Shown here piece after piece: positions 44,929 to 59,795 of a DNA stretch of 64,000 bases. The stretch spans positions 28,138,213-28,202,212 of the forward strand of contig OZ234493.1 in NCBI GenBank assembly GCA_965153455.1. The letters run 5' to 3'. Origin of the DNA: Sphagnum compactum (lineage: Eukaryota). The notes below the pieces were generated by a model, which worked only from the letters and a program-made list of their open reading frames with translations, did not search any database and had not been told where the DNA came from. The position numbers were made by a program, and so were the translations under genes. Position 1 is the stretch's first letter, and each line of letters starts with the position of its first letter.

Positions 44929-47900
44929 TTAGGGTGTGGGGTTGGGGAAGTGTTCATGAACTGCATCTATTTCTGCCAATATTTCGTCACCAATGTCAAC
45001 ACCAGTTGCCTTGATTATCTCCTGCAGTTGCCATGTCTTTGTTGCACCAATGACCACACTTGCAACAAGTGGCCTCCTGAGCACAAAACCTGCACCCACT
45101 GTCGTAAGTGCATCATTCAACAAAACAACGATCTTCTCCTAGAACCAATATGATAAGTTGGTACAACCACAGCATATTGGACTCAAAACCCTTGGTCCCA
45201 CAAAATGATTGCACAAACCATGATGAGAAAGTCACTTACCAATTGCCAGAGCTACGGGGCTTATCCCATGCCGCTGTGCAATCTCCATATATGCCTGTGA
45301 TGTCATTACCAAAACAAAATATTTTATATAATGTATTCTCTTCATGTGTGGCTTTGCAACTAAAGAGTTAACACAAAAAAAGGCTACATACTTCTTTATC
45401 TGATATAAGTAAAAGGGGTGAGACAATACAGAGATGGCTGGTATGACGTTTGGCTTTGATAATGAGTATCGACACTCTGCCTCAGCATAACACCCTGCCA
45501 CCAAGACAAACAGAAACCTCAAAATTCTGAGCCACACAGCAACCGTGACTAATGAACAAGTGCCCCAACATTGATTGGTAGCACTCCTTGGACATTGTGA
45601 CACCTCTTTGTAGAGATTGTGTGGAAAGGGGAGAAACACCAGAGTTGTACCTCGATAGAGGTTGAGACGAGCATCAGGTGGTCCACCATCAGGGGTGAGA
45701 TATTTGCCAGATAGAAGCCCCATTGCCAGAGGACTGTATGCCAGCAAGCTCACTCTGTTTGAATCAACAACCAGACAAACACTGGCGTTGAACATAGAAT
45801 TTAACTTGGAGCCTGTCCTGTGATCAGTGGGATTGACAGCTGTGTTCTCCTAATTTAGTCTAATTCTTGGTAACACATGCAAAACTTTGCTTTACTACCA
45901 TCAGACAGTAGAATGGGCAATAGAAAACAAGACTCCATAAAAGGGCCTCACAAGTGTTGAGATTTCATCATTTGATACACAAAATTTTGTCTCCAAATAT
46001 GCACAATGCAGAGTATTCAAACCTGTGATGGTGGCAACATTCGGCAAGCGTAGTGTCAAAAGTGCGGCACAGCAGATTATAGGCATTCTGTTCCAAGGAT
46101 CCAAAAATGTTTATAGGTCAAAGAAAAATTGATTATGCAGGAAAATCAAGAGATGTCATGCTGTAAGGAGTTGTGAACTATCCTAAACAGATCTGGAGTT
46201 CCCAAAATTCTATGGATCTATGAACACTCATGAGAACATGAATGGAATGGTATCAACCCTTCACATGAATAACACAAACCTGACCTTCACAGGAGTCAAG
46301 ACCAAGGAAAGGGGACTCTCTTAGAAAGGAAAATAGTCAATCTCAACAGTTGTGCCCTAAAAAGCACTCTTGTTCAAGTTCCAGTTTTGAGCAGTCTCTA
46401 CATCTCTATCATAGACTCCATGAAGAGTCTGACTCATGTCAGAGAAAAAGTATGTCAAAAAATTGACCTGAATAGAGACAATTTGAGGCAGTTGCTTATC
46501 ATACTTGGCAAGACGACAAAACTCCATTATGCCAAATGCTGTCTCATTGCTCACACCCACATGCCTGATCTACAACACCATGGCTTAAAAACAATCAGCA
46601 ACATGATGATTAGACTCAAAATTGTGAATTCCAAAATAGACATAAAACAATACAACTTTGTGTACAAGCAGATAGAAAACATCAAAACTGTATAAAATGA
46701 TACCATGACTACATGGTTGTAAACCTGGCAACCAGTTGTGCTGCAAAAGAGCATAGGGTGCAAAAAGAAGAGCAACCTTGCCTGCATCTATAGCAGCAGC
46801 AAGAACTTGAAGTTGCTCCTCAATTGGGACAGATTTGTAGCTGCTAGAAGGATTGTAATCAACGTCCCCAAACATTGGTACATATCTTCCATGAACAATC
46901 CCCAACAGCCACCAAATAAGCTTCCAGTAAAACTGAGTAGGGTTTTGAAAGATGCAATGCAATCTTTTTGAATAAAGAAGGGTGGATAATCTTCAAAACA
47001 AACATCAGCAGAGGCAAACCTGTCAGGCCAATGCAGCTGGTATATATCAATGTAGTCAGTACCCAACCGCTTTAAGCTGCAGTGATAGAAACAATCAATT
47101 TGAGAATTGGTGAGAATGGCACACAATTGAAATAGAATAGAAAACACCACAGCATTGGACATCCAAAACAATGTTTGAAAATTGGTTTTAACTAAAAGGG
47201 AATGTTCTCTCATGAGGAAAGCAATGCTAGAAATGAGTCAATATTCTATATCCTGGTATGACCTGCTGTCAAGGGCATCTCGAATGTTCCAAGCATCTAA
47301 CGACGGTGGTCCCCCACGTATCCAAGTCATTTGCCCTGATGGTCCAGTAACCTATACAATGGCAGCATCAGGTTAACTGGTAGTAATTCTTTGTGGAGAG
47401 ATTTTTAACACCTACAAGTGAACCCAGGAAAGTCTTTGAGAAATGGCTAAAGAATACCACAGTTGCCATCTTTAATCTAAAACATCCAGGCATCATCATG
47501 GTTTCAACATCAAACTAGACCTTTGCTTCAATAGTATATCTCTCCTAAGAATTGAGAAATCTTCATTCTCATGATTAAGAAACAGCGAAGCAAGGTTAAC
47601 ACTTCTTCAACAAGCCACAGAGAATTCCAAAGAAGGAAGGACAAGACAGAGAACAAAGGACCAAGAAACAAAAACCAAAAAAGAACAAAAATAATAAAAG
47701 ATGAAAGCAGTCCCACACCTGTTCAGGGACCATCAACAGTAGCATGTATGATAGTGACTTCTCTATCACAACTTACCCACTGACTTTATCAGCTCCCTAC
47801 AGTGGGTAAAGGCCAGTGAAAACACTAAACCTGCATACCAAGTTTCTGCTGCAAATCTGGAAGCAACAGGAAGACTCAGCCATGCTACTGGCTAGCAACA

Positions 47901-49387
47901 AACAACAACACAAGGAGATAACAAAAAACAGAAAGACACAACAGAATAGACAAAACACATAGAAAAGGACAGCAGGGAAGAACAAAGATCAAGTGGGCTT
48001 ACAAGAAGCTCCTCACTTACAAGACTATACAGAATAATTCAGAAAACTCCAAATGCTGAAATTCCAAAAAGGAATTTTTCTTTATTGAGCAACCCTCTAG
48101 TCCTCTTTAACAGAATCTTTAGAGGGTAGCCTTTATTCTTCAGAAGGACAATAAGACTGATCATCTGAGACACAACAACTCTTTACAACTACGAAGCCTC
48201 AAAAACCTGTAAAATTGACTATTGATAACTCCCAACTTAGCAGTAATTGAGATACTGGAATGAACATGAGGCTTATAATCATTTCAATATCTGCATACTC
48301 TGGTTGAGAATGTTTGTCAAAGAAATCACAGGATAAACCTTGAGGACTTTGTTTCACAGCTAGATCCAAGAAGCTACAAGAGAAGCCTTTAGCACAATTC
48401 AACTCACTGAAGCTGCAACAAGTCTAACTTTGCAGGCCATGGATCATCTCCTGTTGCAACAAAAAGGGATAAAAAATACATTAACATTCTAACCTTCAGT
48501 GACATCAGTTTCTGCTTCAAAATATGTCACATGCATACCTAAAGAAAGAAAATTTCTGCTATCAACTAGAAGTGGTACCTTGGTGGCCAGCACAACATGG
48601 TCACGAGAATACTTTGATTGCTTCAGCCATCGCCCCACATACTCTTCAGTCCTTCCTTGTGTCTCTGCCCGCTGTGGTACAGGATACCTGCACAGCACAC
48701 CCCATTGCTTCTTGATTAAGCTCAAAACCAACACTAATGGCTCAACAGTTAGTGAAGAGGAAAACTGTTAAGCCTCCAGCTAAGATCTGGAGTGCAAGGA
48801 ACAGTAGATTTATGGAAACCTTTCTACATCATATGAATCTCCAATCCCCCATGAGGATGGAAAATTGAGGAAATACCCATAGAACATGTGCTGTCATTGC
48901 TTTGGTTATGAATTGAGATCGCAGGACACAAGAATCTGAACAATGTAGATAGCAAGCTCGCAAAATTTCTTCGAAATATATACCAAAGAATACCATCTGG
49001 TTTTGAGAAACGGCCACTTTAAACGTCTTCATCTTTTGTATTTGGAGGAACAGAACCTCAGAGCGAACGTAGTTCACTTACATTTCGGCAGTGTCGAAGA
49101 AGTTAATCCCTGTCTCGGTGGCCATGTTCAGCTGGTCGCAGGCATCCTCAAACGTGTTCTGCTCCCCGTACGTCATTGTTCCTGCGGAAAATTAAGAAGA
49201 TAACAGTCATGCAAACATGTAGTGCGCCCTTCGCAACAAGGGCTATTCTTCACAGCACGAGGCGCTCGCAATGTGTAACGAAGACAAATTAGGAGAAACG
49301 AAGACGGAGGAAATGTACAAACTACAGACCGAGGCAGAGTCTGGAGACTTGCAAACCAGGTGCTAGCGCGACACACGGCATGGCCAT
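44929..49387 (-). CDS. Tas-like NADP(H)-dependent aldo-keto reductase, about 12 exons
   Basis: VSRLCLGTMTYGEQN, GINFFDTAEMYPVPQRAETQGRTEEYVG, VLATKV, SLKRLGTDYIDIYQLHWPDRYVPMFG, GVSNET, LLAYSPLAMGLLSGKY, SVVIGATK, HEHFPNPTP*. Confidence 0.95.
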
Positions 49388-50259
49388 TTTTCCTCCCTTT
49401 TCGTGTGCAGACAGCGATAAATTAGACTTCAGCGACTAAGATTGGAGAGGGCGTCGCTTAAGACAACGTCGCATCCTATCAAACAGCGCTGAGGAGAACA
49501 AAGCGTCAAACCCTAGCCCTAAGGTACGTCCTCGTGTTTCTTCGACAGCCGAGGTCGACGAAGTCGATACAGGAAGGGACCGACTCAACGACGCTCGCAT
49601 TTCCTCTAGTTGCTGTTCACCGTTGCTTGGCAGCTCATCGGACAAAGTCGTGGACAGCAAGACAAGAAAAATCGTGGTGAGAGGACAAATCGGTGGAGGA
49701 GACGAGGAGACACAGCACTTGCCACTCAACGAAGAGGCCTTGAATGCCCTGTGAGGAAGAGAAGGAAGAAGAAAAAATGGCAAAGGTGGACAGAATCACA
49801 AGGATTCTGTCCACCTTTTCCTTAAGAATGAGTTCGTTGCTTTCTTTCCGTGTATATATGTCCAGTAGCTTCTTGTCAGTTAATTTGTTGAGGGTTGGGA
49901 TACAGAGCTTGTTAGTTGGGACAGAGGCACACTATCCGCACCTTGTGCAGCTTTCACTTGTTGGTTGAGCTGCAAGATTGCAGAATTGTGACCACAGAAT
50001 TTTATGACCTTCAATTCATGGTCAAGTGTATGAGTGTGAGCCGTCTCACCTATCCTCACAAGATTGACAGTAGAACTGTCTTCATTCTTCTCCAGATGCT
50101 TGGATGAGCTGAATGTGGCAACCACTGCATGTAGTGCCTGGGTTTGTGAAGATCGTGTAGCAGCGCTGTTTTACCATCAGTGGAAGACTTGACTTGAGGA
50201 AATTTGATTGGTAATCTAGATATATTCTTACATCACACAATCAGAATTGAATTCGCAGG

Positions 50260-53200
50260 ACAAGAAAAATGTCAAGTTCCTCTTGAAAAATCTTCAAGTC
50301 AGTCTGAGAATTATTTCCGCATTACAGTGGTACCATGTAAAGGGCAAAAGGCCTAAATCAGGAGTGTGCCAACCATATCCTGTGGATCAAGCTCATTTGA
50401 GCATTCCAAAGAATCAAAAGCTGCTCCTTTAGGTACTTCCAATATAAATTGATTCATCATATTTTTCTTCGCTCTCTGTGCCAGACAAGAATGATTCATC
50501 ATGCCTGTGATCATGGCTTCACATTCACAAAACAATGACCAAGAAAAAAGTCATCTGACAATATGCGGAAACAGCTATGGAAATGAACATTTTGATAAAA
50601 CTCTGAAGGGGTTGCTCAAGTGAGGAGAAATTTAACTGCTCTCATACACTTTGAAATGCTTTGAGAGGTCAGAAAAATGGTAACATTTCCTCACCATGTT
50701 GTCAAGTTAAAAAATTCATATACTGTAGATGCAAACAGTTTTTGCTTTAATCATGCAATACTACTGCTGGAGGGCAACAGGATTTCAAACAAGTTACACA
50801 GTTCCAATAAACTATACCTATCTGTAATTCAATCACAAGATTAAAATGAAAAAGGAGTTGGTGTGGAACCTCAAGAAGTTTGTCACTTGACCAAGCAAGT
50901 GATGGAACATTGTAAGAACGAAGCACAGGCCAAATCATAAGCAATGAATTGTTGAATGCTCTGATATATTTTTTGAAGTTCCTCTCCTTCATGCACTGCA
51001 CTCCTCATTTCCACTGACCAACCAAATCAAACTTCTGGTGCTCGGCATCAATGACAAGAGCATGCAACAGTGGCCTCAAGCTCTTGTGGGCAGCCACAGA
51101 AATTGCCTGGGTTTGCACCTTGTTTCAGGTGTTCCACATCACAGTGAACAAGAACACAGTCTCTGAGTTCTGATGGCTTAGGTTGAGATTACTAACTTTA
51201 TCATATGCAAAACTTCACACATTCAGGCACACACAAGACTCTGGTTTTAAAATGAGGCCTACCCTGATATCAGGGGGCCACTCTAACTTCTTTGCAAGCC
51301 ATCTTTCTTTGAATGCCCCCTGTACATGTCTGCTTCGGTCATTCAGCATCCATGGATATAATTTTAGCAGCGGTGAAAATAATGCACCTTCAAATAACAA
51401 GCTTTTCTCATTTTGAAGTGTTTCTAACAGGGTCCTCTGATATAGAACTAGAAATGGGACTTCCTCATTGGACATGAGTATTATTCTTGGAAGCAGCCTG
51501 CAGTTTGTGAGAATATGTGAGACAGATTTTATCCTCCATCTGCAGTAAGATTGTGGTCTCATTGTTCAATCGATGAAGCAGGTCATTTCTGCAAGTCTCT
51601 GAAGGAGCTGAAGACTCTGGATTCTAGATTCAAATTTGAGTTGACATTTAGACTCTGGCCCAGAAGATAAGAGGATGGTGAAGAGATGTAAGCTAAAAAT
51701 GGGGGCATTTTTTTCTTGTGCAAAAGTATATAAGCTTCATGGCATGAGACTCTATGGCTGAGGGTCAAGGTCTATGAGGCCCCAAAAGCTTCTCTGTTTG
51801 CAAAATTTCACATGCTGCATTTCCTTTTTCAGTTCCGTTCATTGGAAAATGTGGAACATTCTTCATAGCCATATATAACCAGTTTTAAGAGGACTTCCAG
51901 AGCAAGTCTCACTAACCTGGAATACCTTCTCTGAAATTCTGGAAGGTTATAAAAGTGAAGCTGTAACAAACATGCATCCTGTCCTTTTGGCTTTGCTGAC
52001 CCTTGAGAAACCCCTGCAATTACCACTTCTTAAGGTCAATGCTAGAATCTTGAAACTTCATCTTTTATTCAAAAATGATGCTATTAGCTTGCAACCAAAG
52101 AAAACTCTGTTTTTTCCCTGGAGCTGGAGAACATGAATATTCTGTTGCATCAAGGTAGAGAGATCGGAGTAGCAAGGTCAAACTATCAGAACAAGAAGGA
52201 CGCAGTCTCTGGGTTCAAGGATCTGGGTTGGGGCTCAGGGTTGAAGGTCAGATTTTATGGTTTGACTTTCAGATTTCACTTTATGGTCTACAAATACAGA
52301 ATTTCAGTTTGAGAAAATTAGCGAAAGAGAAGGGTCAACCTGGGACCATATGCAAGTCTGCAAGTTCTAGGGGACCTCCAATATAGCCAACATAGAGGGG
52401 CAAGTCAATGCTTCTTTGCTCCAGAAGCTCCTCCAATTCTTGTGCTGTATTAGGAAGGTCAAGCATTGCCCATGCACATGTAATCTCCCTCACCTCATTC
52501 CACTCATAAGAAGAGGCCACAGATCCACTCTCTGCCATGTTTAAATAGCAAGAATGAAGTTATATGGCTTTTTGGTCATGTCGTTGATCAATACATCAGT
52601 AACTTTCTGTGCCCATAAATTGAATTCATTTTCCCATGCAGTTATGACACTCTAATGGGTATGAACCTACAAAGGGTAAAAGAAACCCCGAATTTTGAAT
52701 ATTGGTCTTTGATAGGATATAAGTCTTGAATCCAAATCTGATCAAGTCTAAACGTTCTATACTCGCTTCTCTAATGTTCATCTCTGTTGAGTTGGGTCTG
52801 GAGTCTTTGAGTTTTCCTTCTGCTTTCTTTGCTATCGAGTGAGAGTTCAAGAGAACAAAATTTCCTACCAGAAAAAGTGTCAAATGCAGTGTTGACTTCA
52901 AAATAAAGGCAGAGTCCAATCTGGTTATACTGTAATAAGCATCGACTTCCTCCCTGGAGAAGACAAACCACCATGCATTAGTATTTCCTCGAATACTATA
53001 TATCTTGCTAATCCACTAGTGGCAAAATCAAGGACATTTTCAGTTGTGTGCAAAGTAGCCCACTAAAACCAGTGATCACAAAGTAACAGTACCCAAGAAC
53101 ATGTGTATGAAAGTCTTAAGGCCAGATTTAGTTTTGATATGACCACATTAGGTTGGTCGGCTTTAGACACATAAACAAACAATGGGAGAGGTCCTACGTA

Positions 53201-54826
53201 CAAGTGAGGTCAGTTCAGATAGGTGATAATGAGGAGAACATCTTCTTGAAGCTACAAAACCATAGTTCAGTGCCCAGTGAGGAAACCTTGTGAACAAACA
53301 CCCAGGGGTCTTCCTCATTGATGGCCTTGGCTCCCAAAAATGCATGTGCATTGCCCACAAAGTTCAGTCCATCAAATAAACACACACAGACAATTCTACT
53401 GAATGGAGAACACTTCTTCAACCCTGCAATAACATTCATACATAATTGTTGTTGTAAGTTTTTGCACATCTTGTTCCTTCACATCTTAAAAATGGGTTGA
53501 AGATGACTCTAAAAACAACTGGGTATGTGGACATACCAGTAACAGGAACATTCCAGACAGCAGTAACAGCAACATCAAAACTCATGACCAACTCCTGCAA
53601 GTGAATGTATGCCACCTTAGAATACTATCCTGTTGGTTAATGAGTGGATTAACTTGTAATCTCAAAATTATTGCAATGTATCTCTGACTTTTATTTCCAA
53701 AAACTGGCCCACCCAAAGCTGAAACACTAAATTGCACAAACACCATCCCTTGTCCTCTTCATGTGGTCTTGTCTCCTTTACTCCACTAAAGCCCTTAGGA
53801 AGGACTTTTCCCTTAATATTCCTTCCTAACACCCACTTTCACAAGTTCCAGACAGTAGTTTTAGGATTAATGTGAAAAAGGTAAAGGATTCAGAGGGTGG
53901 AATAAGAGTGAAGTTGACCTGTAGAGGTGCATTTTGAGAATCACCAGGTTTTGAGTTGGACACTAAATCCTTGAAGCCTGGATCATTGAGTGTGGGGTCT
54001 GGTTGTAGAGATGAAGATAGTAGTAGGTCCCCTACTTCCCAAATGCCCCTAATCATACTATGAATGGTTCACTATGTATGACACATCAAGAATTGTTCAA
54101 ATAGACCATGACGAGTCACAGACACATTTAGTGTAAATTGCAGCATAAACAGGAAATGAGAACTTCATAATGACCATAATCTTTATGACCTAATAATTTG
54201 GGTATAATTTCAAACATGCTGTTTCTGCCACTAGTGTTAAACATTAACAAAGTGCAGATTAGCAAACAGAATAGAAGGACGTATGTTTCCTGTAACCTAA
54301 GGACACAGAAAAAACTGAACATCTAATATTGGCTTTAATGAGAAGTTAACATGATCAATGCTCCGTAACCTAAAAAAACTAAAAATGATATCACCCACAA
54401 AGGAATATATGATTTGTGAGATAGACCTTTCACAATAAGGAGCTCCAGCACAGAGGGCCGGCAGGTGGGTGACATGCCACCCAGGCTGTGAAAGAACCTC
54501 ATTGCTGCTGTCTCACAGTTGATTTCCACACACGTTTGAGATTGTGGTCTCTTCCTATGCAAGCCTGTACACATAATTGTCAATAGTTTATCAACCCACA
54601 GACACAGAAACTTAAACACATCCAGATACAACATTCCATGAACTAAAAGCCTGCCAACTAAACAGATTGTCCTTTAAGGTTTAGTAAAAAATATTATGGA
54701 ATTATAACTGTCATTGTTCTATCACTTCTCTTACTTTCTAATTGAAGTCTCTCCAGCAATAATTTGATGTGTCAGGAACCAAAACAACTGAGGCTTGAGA
54801 AACAAATTACTTGAATGTTTGGACAT
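50260..54826 (-). CDS. NPHP1: Nephrocystin-1-like protein (nephrocystin homology domain); 3' end and start uncertain
   Basis: Ten phase-consistent GT-AG exons (54826-54811, 54564-54427, 54031-53919, 53594-53537, 53423-53287, 52953-52869, 52531-52340, 52013-51917, 51497-51263, 50995-50870) give 399 open codons. Motifs LGGMSPTCRPSVL, LQPDPTLNDPGFKDL, SRIVCVCLFDGLNFVGNAH, LYFEV, EITCAWAML, LLPRIIL...LVLYQRTL, PLLKLYPWML and WPVLRSYNVPSLAW are colinear with human NPHP1 as recalled. Confidence 0.8.
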
Positions 54827-57800
54827 CCTTGAGCTTCCACAACAAGATCCAATGTGCAAAAAGTCTAACAGCCTTGGTGAATTCTACTTTCTTGCTCACC
54901 CCATTCAACCTTTCACTTGGTGTCAATTGGCTTTGACTTGGCCAGTTGTCTTTACTAAAACTCTGGCACTGTGTTCTTGGCTTTTGCCAGATGTTGCTCA
55001 AATTTCAGAGTAGCATTGGGTCCTGGTCTGCCTGTTGAATTTCTTCCATTTTCATGCTGAAAACATCCTGTTGGGATGTTGTCATCGCCCACCAGAGAAG
55101 GTGTCGCTGTTTCCCTCTTGCTTTTAGAACTACCAATTTCAAAGGCCTACCTGTACATGAAAAGCATCCTCATCTGGTTATGTCAAATTGGTTATTGACA
55201 TGGCACAAGCTTCAACTGTGTATATCTTGTGTAATTCTGATCATGGGTTGAGGATTTTTCACAAGGAGTGGCACTTGGCTGCTCTTTCTCCATGATCATT
55301 TCTTGTTCCCCCTTTACTCCTGTTACCTCATTACGAATGAGGTAAAATTTCCTGGTTGCCTCACTTGAACATCCTTATGATCAGAATATTTGCCAGGAGA
55401 TAAGGTACACTGAGCAATCGGTTGACATGATTTGTAACAAAGATTGGAATGTACATTGCAGCCATCATTCATTGAAAGAGATTTAGGTTTTTGGGCTATG
55501 CAGAAACATCATCTGTCTGACTGAACAACATGTGGAAGTGATATTTGATACTAGATAATCTTCTATTACCAGTTGTTTGACAGTGTTCTTCATTGGCAGA
55601 CCTGAAAAATCTGGAGTGAACAATATTCTCTTTACAACATCTAATATTTTTCCCATTTTTCCATCTTCTCATTGTTCTAAACAACCATCAACACGACAGA
55701 CCCTAAAAGTTAGGGTGATACCATACCAGAGAATTGAAAAACAAATGGACTCAGTATCCATGCTACAGAAACCTCCACAATCAGGCAGACATATTTTTCT
55801 TCAGACTCCCCAATACAGAGACCTGAAATGGAATACTTTAAGCCACATAATTTCTGCTCTTTCCCACAAATCAGTCAGAGAAACATAAAGTAGTGATGGC
55901 CACAACCTTCAATTTTCCAACATGACAATTTTTTTCAAAATCAAAATATGGTTATGGTGCAATGTAAGAACAGAGTGTAAAGACCAAATTTTTGAAGTAA
56001 AAGACTTTGAAAAACACATTGATTGACATCTTCTTGGCAAAATGGATCCCAGACCTGTGATAGCAAATCATTTAATCAAACCAACGATTTTTGAACATCC
56101 AACCAAGAGCTTAAAGATGCATGCAATGAGGTAAAAAGCCAGGTTGAGTTTTTAAGAAAGAAGGTGGAAAACTGGACAGAAAAAGAAACCTGTCAACCTG
56201 AAGATCTGACACACTCTGGCAAAACTGGCCCACCTGGGATAAAAGAAAACCTGCAGAAAGCCACCAGAAGACAGAAGGCTTGAACAAAAGATCACCTAAG
56301 GACAATTCCAAGGGCAACCCCCAACAAAAGACCCAAGGAATGGTGCTGAGAAGAAGGCCTTAGTCTTCTTCTGCTGCACAACATTGGACATGGGTCCCTA
56401 GGAGGAATTAAAATCCTGTGTTTTGCAGCGTCTTCTGTTCTTGCAACACTCTATCTAGAGAGAGTTCTTGCCTTCCTCTCCACTGATTTCTGACCTCTGC
56501 TAAACCATCTGCTAATCTTCCTTGGAGGTGGCATAAGTATTCATTCCAGGTTTTCTATGCTGAAGCCGAATTTGATTTCCAGTAAACCATGTGTGGGGAT
56601 AGTAAAAAATCTGTCATGACTTCAAATGAGGAGGTTGGAACCATGCTCTGCTGAGAGGCCTACCCCTGAGACAGTTCTGCTGGCTGTTGATTGCTCCATG
56701 ATGTACATTGCTGCAAATAACTAGTGTTCCCTACAGCCAGCCCAGGGCTTTGTCCTTTCTTTTGGTAATTGGTCATTGGAGCAGGTTCTAACAATATTTA
56801 CAGAGACAGATTGGATTATGGCTTCCCTTCCTCTTGTTGCTCTTTCTGCCGCCCCCCCATCGTTCCCAATGACCGTGTATCTATGCATTGCTTCCCATCC
56901 CAAATATCAGCTTATCAGCTGGGAGTCTGTAAATGCCAAGTCCTTCCTATGTTGCCCACTTCTATTTTTTGCCTCTCTTGAATAGTCACAGGTCCTGATA
57001 GTGTTATAAATGTGAAAACACAGAACTTCTGCTTGGTTGTAGGCTTTTCAAATGGAATACTTCAACTTGGAATCTGCACCAAGCTGCCCAAATTGATGCT
57101 GATACCACTGATTCAATTGCTATATTGTCGGCACCATGAATGATCCATCTCTTTTGTTGCCTTCATTGTGTTGCTGAATGCAGGTATGAGTTTTTTATGT
57201 CTCATGATCAAGTACTTCCCCCATCTGTTGTGAGGTTAAAAGTCATGAGGGAAAATTTGGCTAGGAGAGTTCTTACTTGGAGGTTGATGTTGATGTTCCT
57301 GGTCCTCCTTCAGTTTTTGATTTGGTGACTATCTCACATGCTGAACTGGGTCCCTTGCCTCTTGTGTACTTGATTGGAACCACCACAAGAAGTTTCTTAC
57401 CAGGTTCTTTACTTGTTTCAGGATATTACTTCATGGTCCCCACACTGGTGCCACATATAACCAGCAGGAAGCTAGTTGTTGAGGTTTGCTACTAATGCTC
57501 TGCAAGTTAAAGAGAGTTTCTTGAAGCTTTGGTGTTTCAGTTTTCTATCTAGGATTGACATTGTATCCAAAGGGATACCCTGATGGAGTTGTGACTTCTC
57601 CTTCTTTGAGCCAATCAAGGCCCAAAGTGTCACCCCAAGATGGATTGCTGCCCCGATCTAAGGTACTGTTCCAAGGATATCACATCCATTGTCTCCGAAC
57701 CAGTTTCCAATCCAGAAGCAATGCAGAAAGTGTTCAGTGCCTGAATTCCTTCATCCATATTTCTTTGGCATGCTTGCAGGATCATGCACATGTTATCAAT

Positions 57801-58653: not shown

Positions 58654-59795
58654 TCAGTTTCCACCACCAAAAAGATAGCCCAAGGATGAACCTCCACCAG
58701 GAGCAGCGTGCACCTTAGTTGATGGACGATCCTGCGGCAAGGAAACACAAAAATTGCAATAGGCGCATTTAGAACCATGCACAGAGGACCAATCTCGGCG
58801 TTCAAACCAGGCACAGCTAGTGTCTACCCGCGCAGTTTCACTACACGAAATGTATATCCTGCAGGCCGTTCATCTATCAAATGTGTGATATTCTGGTCTG
58901 CACTTAGTAATATCAGTCTCATGCCACTGAGGAAATCTCTTGAGGAAGACGTTCTCGATCGACATCAGGACCTAGAATGCAAGTGTTTTCAGAGTTGCAA
59001 ACAACCTGACAGCGCTGAGAATTACGAAAAGTAGAGTTTGTTACTAGTGAGATCCACTGAACGCGAGAACTGCCTCGCATCCTGGCATAGCCTGCACCTA
59101 TTGGTCTCCGGCACGTAAACTTCGAAACTTAGGCATTGCACAGAGGTTTCTTCAGAATCGATCACGATAGAATTCCTAAACTCTGCGAACAACCCTTTCT
59201 GGACGTGGATTATAAGAACTATGTGCGTACATCTGAGGTGCTCCACCATTAGGCGCTTGTAAGTGCAAGCTTTCAAGGAGAATATCCTCCAAAAGATGGA
59301 TACATACTTCACGATTCAACGTAATTTGAAACTCCATAATCTCCAAGAGGTGGATATGCATCCGCACACATGACGATGGACGACAACAGAAAATTTGCAA
59401 AGTTTTGTTAAAAGTGTAAAGAAGATCCCCGTATTGTTCCCAGAGGAGTTGGTCGAGACACTGCTGACCGTGATGAAATTGCCGGTGTTTTGGCCATCTG
59501 CGCGATGGTAGTTGTTGAAGTTCCGTCCTAACTTGTGTGTCAAAGCAGCTGCGTTCTCCTCAGCCTTCCCATTCTGACGCGACACAGAAGCCGCTGTCAC
59601 GACTGCCGGCCCCGCTTTCTCCGCATGCGCATTCTTCACCAACCCGGCAGGTGACTGCAATTCCGGCTGCAACGGCCGTGGAGCCGCCACCGCGGATCTG
59701 TTGCCGCTCGCTTTGGGCCACGGCGGATTCTCGGATCCGAACAGATATCCCAACTGGCTCTCCCCTCCTCCGCTGCTTCTCACTCCTCTCCCCAT
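58654..59795 (-). CDS. SPR1: SPIRAL1-like microtubule-associated protein, 2 exons (59795-59469, 58731-58654)
   Basis: MGRGVRSSGGGESQLGYLFG...NNYHRADGQNTGNFIT|DRPSTKVHAAPGGGSSLGYLFGGGN*. Confidence 0.95.

What the first reader, a model, noticed from the sequence alone, without database searches (positions are those of the whole stretch)
50260..54826. Hidden nephrocystin-1-like ciliary transition-zone gene in a land plant
Seen: ten small exons splice with consistent phases into 399 open codons, which no single ORF reveals. Recalled human NPHP1 motifs align in order: MGAIPAGFRPSTL~LGGMSPTCRPSVL; LQPELMPSQLAFRDL~LQPDPTLNDPGFKDL; SRHVRLCLFDGNKVLSNIH~SRIVCVCLFDGLNFVGNAH; ELSCGWVFL~EITCAWAML; LLPETL..LIFYRQIL~LLPRIIL..LVLYQRTL; LPLLHSTRLPPFRW~WPVLRSYNVPSLAW. 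Established: NPHP1 is part of the NPHP1-4-8 module, and bryophytes have flagellated sperm. My recollection, which needs verifying, is that the model moss Physcomitrium lacks most transition-zone genes. Inference: this lineage keeps an NPHP module in its sperm flagella.
Basis: partly seen in the sequence, partly recalled or inferred. Interest (0 to 1): 0.8.

Follow-up and report, generated by a model that had tools for sequence, protein, structure and literature searches.

The report
Moss nephrocystin-1 gene, partners not found
Mosses carry an intact, unnamed gene for nephrocystin-1, a protein of the gate at the base of cilia that such plants were reported to lack, yet its usual gate partners could not be found in this genome, so it may work in moss sperm flagella largely on its own.

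Summary
Ten GT-AG exons on the minus strand (54826-50870) give 399 open codons. They match unnamed Ceratodon moss proteins (50% identity, E 7e-115) and are intact in two close relatives: no stop, no indel where 7.4 were expected, omega 0.5-0.6. By eye the protein matches the published NPHP1-C2 alignment, best its green-algal rows, not NPHP4's C2 domains; language-model neighbours agree. No E-value against a real NPHP1 could be obtained; folds failed. It lacks SH3; both ends are unresolved; no RNA junction was seen. Best reading: a vertically inherited NPHP1 acting at the sperm flagellar base in a stripped transition zone. It contradicts the published claim that non-seed land plants lack all such proteins. 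The scan noted NPHP1 in Perkinsus before, not in plants.

The parts
54811..54826 (-). Exon 1, putative: ATG plus 13 nt, phase-1 donor; start not established
   Evidence: Keeps the frame; ATG and GT kept in L005 and L006; no homology or RNA support
54427..54564 (-). Exon 2 (aa 6-51); conserved core starts near aa 36
   Evidence: tblastn with P0014 E 0.004 within the window; 15 of 46 identical
53919..54031 (-). Exon 3 (aa 52-89), pre-C2 segment
   Evidence: tblastn hit begins at 54032; 15 of 38 identical to P0014; an earlier acceptor at 54048 gave stops
53537..53594 (-). Exon 4 (aa 90-108), first strand of the C2 domain
   Evidence: 9 of 19 identical to P0014
53287..53423 (-). Exon 5 (aa 109-154), C2 core with the C-L-F-D-G, G-N-x-H and W-x-F signature; carries R121C relative to relatives
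   Evidence: 28 of 46 identical to P0014; single copy in G000; same donor position in other plant contigs
52869..52953 (-). Exon 6 (aa 155-182), C2 strands
   Evidence: 13 of 28 identical; exon 5-6 join present in Ceratodon models P0009, P0012, P0013
52340..52531 (-). Exon 7 (aa 183-246), C2 strand with E-I-T-C-A-W and the following G-x-x-x-x-P loop
   Evidence: 24 of 64 identical to P0014, 30 to P0012
51917..52013 (-). Exon 8 (aa 247-278), last C2 strand
   Evidence: 11 of 32 identical
51263..51497 (-). Exon 9 (aa 279-357), helical domain, best conserved exon
   Evidence: 50 of 79 identical to P0014; E 3e-26 genome-wide
50870..50995 (-). Exon 10 (aa 358-399), helical domain; homology ends near aa 392
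   Evidence: 22 of 42 identical to P0014, which has the same exon 9-10 join
50260..50869 (-). Unresolved 3' end: stop-bearing exon not determined; candidate 50475-50353 (41 codons, TAG) or read-through to a stop at about 50747
   Evidence: Candidate open in window and L006, frameshifted in L005; read-through differs in all three
50323..50324 (.). Site of a 352-base deletion in the window's genome relative to relatives, inside the unresolved 3' region
   Evidence: Extra 351-352 bases in L005 and L006 and about 350 in the contig of run X18

Best explanation
A functional, single-copy moss orthologue of nephrocystin-1 (NPHP1): an NPHP1-type C2 domain followed by a helical domain, without the SH3 domain of animals, inherited vertically from flagellated green algae and kept since early in moss evolution. 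Shown: gene structure, intact frame under purifying selection, moss-wide relatives, family resemblance. Inferred: it is switched on only in antheridia; the C2 domain binds the membrane and the helical domain a partner at the base of the sperm flagellum, giving a minimal membrane contact (docking or gating) in a transition zone that has lost the MKS module, RPGRIP1L, CEP290 and visible Y-links. Whether NPHP4 is still its partner is open.
For: Frame and exon order. Two relatives, L005 and L006: 1197 coding bases with 0 stops, 0 indels against 7.4 expected from 17 intron indels (P 6e-4), all splice dinucleotides kept, 30 amino-acid-changing against 49-52 expected at the intron rate (P 0.002-0.0007). 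Family: window exon 5 matches the human NPHP1-C2 strand 2-3 block at 9 of 18 positions without a gap, Ceratodon P0012 at 11 of 18 (my count); the G-N, W-x-F, E-I-T-x-x-W-A-M and post-strand G-S-x-x-x-P features follow the Volvox, Chlorella and Micromonas rows; a rodent row that runs into the helical part matches exons 9-10 over 32 positions without a gap, 4 identical and about 8 similar (my count). Language-model neighbours of P0013: chordate 'SH3 domain-containing protein (fragment)' 0.95, 'putative nephrocystin 4' 0.93, 'nephrocystin-1-like' 0.90. Low-confidence model still shows 7 strands then helices. Flagellar machinery is present: IFT46, 3 exons, E 3e-22. Silent in a polyA run in which the neighbour is spliced, as expected of a sperm gene. 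Moss sperm has a transition zone with stellate pattern (10.1101/2020.12.21.423647, passages).
Against: No E-value or reciprocal hit against a real NPHP1: three homologue searches returned only Ceratodon proteins, Pfam and PDB gave nothing, both folds had pLDDT 30-33. No spliced read. Selection is weak: omega 0.51-0.63, the test against synonymous sites P 0.02-0.09; 10 of 26 changes fall on sites shared with Ceratodon, not significantly fewer than chance (P 0.13), among them R121C in the window and W149R in L005. In mouse and worm NPHP1 needs NPHP4 to reach the transition zone (PMC4635004, passages), so an orphan NPHP1 there is unexpected. Localisation and tissue are wholly inferred.
Confidence: 0.58

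Rival explanations
1. One reading: mosses keep a working NPHP module (NPHP1 with NPHP4, perhaps a diverged RPGRIP1L), and the partners were missed because they are diverged and split into small exons.
For: NPHP1 depends on NPHP4 for localisation in mouse and worm. The genome search is insensitive: even the 50%-identical Ceratodon protein recovered only 3 of 9 homologous exons. NPHP1 itself was missed outside opisthokonts by PMC4092220 and called metazoan-specific by PMC5850483. No NPHP4 profile was available.
Against: RPGRIP1L C2-C2_1 not found. NPHP4 second-C2 motif D-V-W-D-x-D-S-L-L: 0 matches with 1 mismatch; F-x-F-Q-F-Y motif: 47 matches against 32 for the control, 17 of 47 read, none exon-like. 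No Y-links seen in non-seed plants (PMC4092220).
Confidence: 0.22
2. A relic under relaxed selection: NPHP1 lost its module and is decaying in this moss genus.
For: Omega 0.51-0.63 against about 0.15-0.18 for 88 codons of the neighbouring reductase (2 changing, 4 silent; tiny counts); changes at family-conserved R121 and W149; 352-base deletion and no conserved last exon; no RNA.
Against: No stop, indel or splice loss in 3 of 3 sequences; 50% identity to Ceratodon, which keeps two copies: that cannot survive long without selection.
Confidence: 0.08
3. NPHP1 by descent, but re-used outside the flagellum, for instance as a membrane-cytoskeleton adaptor in spermatid remodelling or vegetative cells.
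For: Partners and Y-links appear absent; Ceratodon P0013/P0014 carry a 176-residue basic N-terminal extension with no match in this window.
Against: No read in the polyA run; no relative from a non-flagellated plant appeared (named hits are all Ceratodon; these searches are insensitive).
Confidence: 0.07
4. Not NPHP1 but another ciliary C2 protein (NPHP4 N-terminal C2, AHI1) or a moss-specific C2 family.
For: Atlas ranks 2 and 4 are labelled nephrocystin-4 (0.93, 0.89); NPHP4N-C2 has a similar strand pattern; no formal E-value.
Against: NPHP4N rows have F-x-G-x-T and end in G-S-P-R-x-L, NPHP4C rows F-x-F-Q-F-Y and D-V-W-D; the moss proteins have neither but have the NPHP1 G-N-x-H and W-x-F; about 440 aa with one C2 and a helical tail fits NPHP1. 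AHI1 rows were seen only in one passage.
Confidence: 0.05

Closest known systems
Ceratodon purpureus hypothetical proteins M758_4G219900 (P0012), KC19_1G194500 (P0013), M758_1G225200 (P0014), KC19_4G214700 (P0009)
   Same: Orthologous: 50% identity over aa 36-402, same exon joins where checked
   Different: Deposited without a name; two paralogues there, one copy here; P0013/P0014 have a long N-terminal extension not found here; their C-termini differ from each other
Green-algal NPHP1-C2 proteins of Volvox, Chlamydomonas, Chlorella, Micromonas (PMC3495828 supplement)
   Same: Same C2 signature and spacing, closest by eye
   Different: Chlamydomonas has accessions for MKS1, TMEM67, CEP290, RPGRIP1L, CC2D2A, B9 and more in PMC4092220's table; none of 7 such families was found here. 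Only the C2 block could be compared
Animal nephrocystin-1 (NPHP1) of the NPHP1-4-8 module
   Same: C2 plus helical core (PMC3495828 Table 1; alignment)
   Different: No SH3 domain: no open frame over 82 codons in the 2.7 kb upstream and no Pfam SH3 hit on the Ceratodon proteins; partners not found

Membership tests
NPHP1 (nephrocystin-1) | NPHP1-type C2 sequence signature | tested here: met
   By-eye match to the published alignment: 9 of 18 (window) and 11 of 18 (P0012) identities to human in the strand 2-3 block, algal-type downstream motifs; no statistic
NPHP1 (nephrocystin-1) | Alpha-helical domain after the C2 domain | tested here: met
   Exons 9-10 best conserved, helical in the low-confidence model, gap-free match to the one rodent row that covers this part; weak but consistent
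NPHP1 (nephrocystin-1) | Significant or reciprocal profile hit to NPHP1 | tested here: inconclusive
   No NPHP1 sequence came back; no Pfam family; Atlas neighbours at 0.95 and 0.90 fit NPHP1, 0.93 is labelled NPHP4
NPHP1 (nephrocystin-1) | C2 beta-sandwich fold | tested here: inconclusive
   pLDDT 30 and 33; Foldseek no match at E 0.001
NPHP1 (nephrocystin-1) | N-terminal SH3 or EF-hand accessory domain (variable between lineages, PMC3495828) | tested here: not met
   None in P0012/P0013 by Pfam; none upstream. Not defining outside animals
NPHP1 (nephrocystin-1) | Localises to the ciliary transition zone | not testable with these tools
   Needs tagging in sperm
NPHP1-4-8 module | NPHP4 gene in the same genome | tested here: inconclusive
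   No profile available; motif patterns negative but weak
NPHP1-4-8 module | RPGRIP1L (NPHP8) gene in the same genome | tested here: not met
   PF11618 no match at E 0.05; exon-wise search, limited sensitivity
MKS module of the transition zone | B9 proteins, TMEM67, CC2D2A, TMEM216/17, TMEM231, CEP290 | tested here: not met
   0 of 6 families found; control IFT46 found; tectonic and AHI1 not searched
NPHP4 C2 domains (N and C) | F-x-G-x-T and G-S-P-R-x-L (N); F-x-F-Q-F-Y and D-V-W-D (C) | tested here: not met
   Absent from the window model and P0012-P0014 by eye

The most novel reading that the evidence does not exclude
Mosses have kept NPHP1 as the only, or nearly only, known transition-zone protein, without NPHP4, RPGRIP1L, the MKS module or Y-links. 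NPHP1 would then have a module-independent job at the flagellar base, and a moss knockout would isolate that job from the Y-link gate.
Probability: 0.33. Interest if true: 0.75.

Novelty: new member of a known kind. Interest (0 to 1): 0.55.

Why it matters
[quoted passage not shown] A conserved moss NPHP1 breaks the 'all lost' statement and shows NPHP1 can persist where Y-links are not seen. Ceratodon is a transformable moss (recalled), so the role of a human kidney-disease gene without its usual module becomes directly testable. If NPHP4 turns up, the finding shrinks to a corrected gene inventory.

Tried and rejected
Exon 3 from 54048 to 53945: stops, replaced. Last exon 50475-50353: not conserved. 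Pfam on 9 single frames of the gene and on P0012/P0013: nothing relevant. PDB by sequence: 2 weak hits to the N-terminal extension only. Atlas with the 75-residue fragment: no usable hit. Representative search with exon 5: 11 hits, 7 true relatives, 4 unrelated repeats dropped (P0003, P0008, P0010, P0011). Two folds, pLDDT 30 and 33, and a Foldseek search: uninformative. Alignment A4 misplaced short exons and was not used. NPHP4 look-alike L025 is a chance match behind another gene on the opposite strand. Algal contamination rejected: the gene lies at 28 Mb on contig C1 among land-plant-type genes, with the same flanks in L005 and L006. Columns of the PMC4092220 supplement table could not be read reliably, so no E-value is taken from it. 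No complex prediction was sent: no partner in hand.
Full report
Setting. The window is G000:C1:28138213-28202212 of a 382-Mb genome in 702 contigs. It holds intron-rich genes of land-plant type: a MORN-repeat kinase, an LCAT-family acyltransferase and an aldo-keto reductase by Pfam. Runs that share words with the locus are labelled moss or plant metagenome and the named relatives are from the moss Ceratodon, so it is a moss; an earlier scan note calls it a peat moss (not tested here).

Observation. Six-frame reading and splice-site scoring gave ten minus-strand exons that join into 399 codons with no stop, all introns GT-AG. The frame is still open after exon 10. My candidate exon 11 is frameshifted in L005, read-through differs in all three sequences, and the window lacks 352 bases at 50324 that L005, L006 and run X18 have. 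Exon 1 rests on frame alone. Both ends are therefore unresolved.

Is it a gene? Exon 5 found 7 true relatives among 11 hits; their profile found two Ceratodon proteins, and the cluster look-up a third. P0014 hits 9 of 10 exons in order and aligns to the model at 187 of 371, E 7e-115. Unnamed contig proteins P0004-P0007 and P0016, 52-67% identical in the alignment, run into unrelated sequence at the exon 5 donor, so that intron is shared. Two close relatives (L005, L006) keep all ten exons with 0 stops and 0 indels in 1197 bases against 7.4 expected (P 6e-4); 30 changing and 17 silent substitutions give omega 0.51-0.63, fewer changing ones than the intron rate predicts (P 0.002 or less) but only marginally fewer than silent sites predict (P 0.02-0.09). 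Changes do not clearly avoid conserved sites (10 of 26, P 0.13). So the frame is protected and the protein only loosely. The gene is single-copy here.

RNA. Four runs were laid. The raw polyA run X22 (about 12% read, 11.9 million records, mostly 90-95% alike, so probably a congener) has depth 0 in 19 of 19 bins from 50224 to 57500, while the neighbouring reductase shows 8 and 10 junction reads. Metatranscriptome contigs over the gene are sparse and unspliced. Junctions are thus unsupported by RNA; silence is what a sperm-specific gene would give, and also what a dead one would give.

Family. No tool returned a real NPHP1, so there is no E-value (the last scored all 576 candidates of 328-1045 residues and found only Ceratodon; no Physcomitrium or Marchantia protein appeared, which may mean loss, lack of annotation or low sensitivity). 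Two lines point to NPHP1. First, the NPHP1-C2 alignment in the supplement of PMC3495828 (parts 55, 57, 58, 59 read; part 56 not): the strand 2-3 block matches human at 9 of 18 positions without a gap (P0012: 11 of 18), and the later motifs follow the Volvox, Chlorella and Micromonas rows; one rodent row extends into the helical part and matches exons 9-10 over 32 positions without a gap. These are my counts by eye. The NPHP4 N and C blocks carry other signatures. Second, the Atlas neighbours of P0013 score 0.95, 0.93 and 0.90 (SH3-bearing chordate fragment, putative nephrocystin 4, nephrocystin-1-like; automatic names). Folds failed. I put NPHP1 orthology at about 0.9. The closeness to green algae argues for vertical descent.

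Partners. In G000, 0 of 7 transition-zone families matched (B9-C2, Meckelin, C2-C2_1, CC2D2AN-C2, Transmemb_17, CEP209_CC5, TM231) while IFT46 gave three exons. The search works exon by exon and recovered only 3 of 9 exons with a 50%-identical query, so these are weak negatives, least weak for the short conserved B9 proteins (my judgement). NPHP4 had no profile; one motif gave 0 matches, the other 47 against 32 for the control, of which 17 were read and none looked like an exon. Tectonic and AHI1 were not searched.

Mechanism. Shown: intact gene, C2-plus-helical protein, flagellar transport gene in the genome. From established work: NPHP1 sits at the transition zone and needs NPHP4 to get there in mouse and worm (PMC4635004, passages); its C2 is predicted to bind membrane (PMC3495828, passages); moss sperm has a stellate transition zone (10.1101/2020.12.21.423647, passages) but no Y-links were seen in non-seed plants (PMC4092220, passages). 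Inferred: antheridial expression and a minimal membrane contact at the flagellar base. I give this 0.58; a full NPHP module missed by the search 0.22; decay 0.08; re-use elsewhere 0.07; another C2 family 0.05.

Literature. PMC4092220 (passages, methods section, supplement passages and part 4) searched predicted proteomes and found no transition-zone protein in Physcomitrella v1.1 or Selaginella. PMC3495828's supplement names Physcomitrella twice and Selaginella once, all outside the NPHP1 block. PMC5850483 calls NPHP1 metazoan-specific (passages). A screen for plant sperm genes does not mention NPHP in its main text (10.1101/2021.07.25.453666, passages; its supplements could not be seen and may bear on this). 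PMC7093003 and PMC6215392 (passages) add nothing on plants. Nine searches (listings only) showed no paper on a moss NPHP1; subscription papers are not covered, and automatic database labels were not checked.

Verdict. A real, probably functional NPHP1 gene, widespread in mosses and unnamed in the records seen. New member of a known family in a group reported to lack it; interest 0.55, rising to 0.75 if it proves to act without NPHP4.

Noticed in passing
window 47536-48687: High-copy repeat inside an intron of the aldo-keto reductase gene: contig depth in the thousands and abundant polyA reads; it crowded the read tables.
   Followed up: no
window 45232-49387, minus strand: Expressed aldo-keto reductase gene directly downstream, spliced at 49180-49329, 48684-49079 and 46885-47020; used as control.
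   Followed up: partly
window 49072-50223: A few polyA read pairs in the opposite orientation (depth 1-2) suggest a plus-strand RNA between the reductase start and the unresolved 3' end of the NPHP1-like gene.
   Followed up: no
window about 58654-59795, minus strand: Upstream neighbour with two G-G-G-x-S-x-L-G-Y-L-F-G ends, which I recall as the SPIRAL1 microtubule-protein pattern; no Pfam hit.
   Followed up: no
window 49896-49900: Runs X1, X2 and X18 and locus L005 have about 40 extra bases here: a second deletion in the window's genome.
   Followed up: no
window 50870-54826: CpG is strongly depleted in the gene (observed/expected 0.10 in exons, 0.17 in introns, 1.02 at the reductase 5' end), as in a long-methylated gene body.
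   Followed up: no
G000:C3:16178069-16179639 (L007-L009): IFT46 gene, three exons matched.
   Followed up: no
P0009, P0012, P0013, P0014: The Ceratodon gene models disagree at both ends and one stops in an intron, so the family is probably mis-annotated in public moss proteomes.
   Followed up: partly
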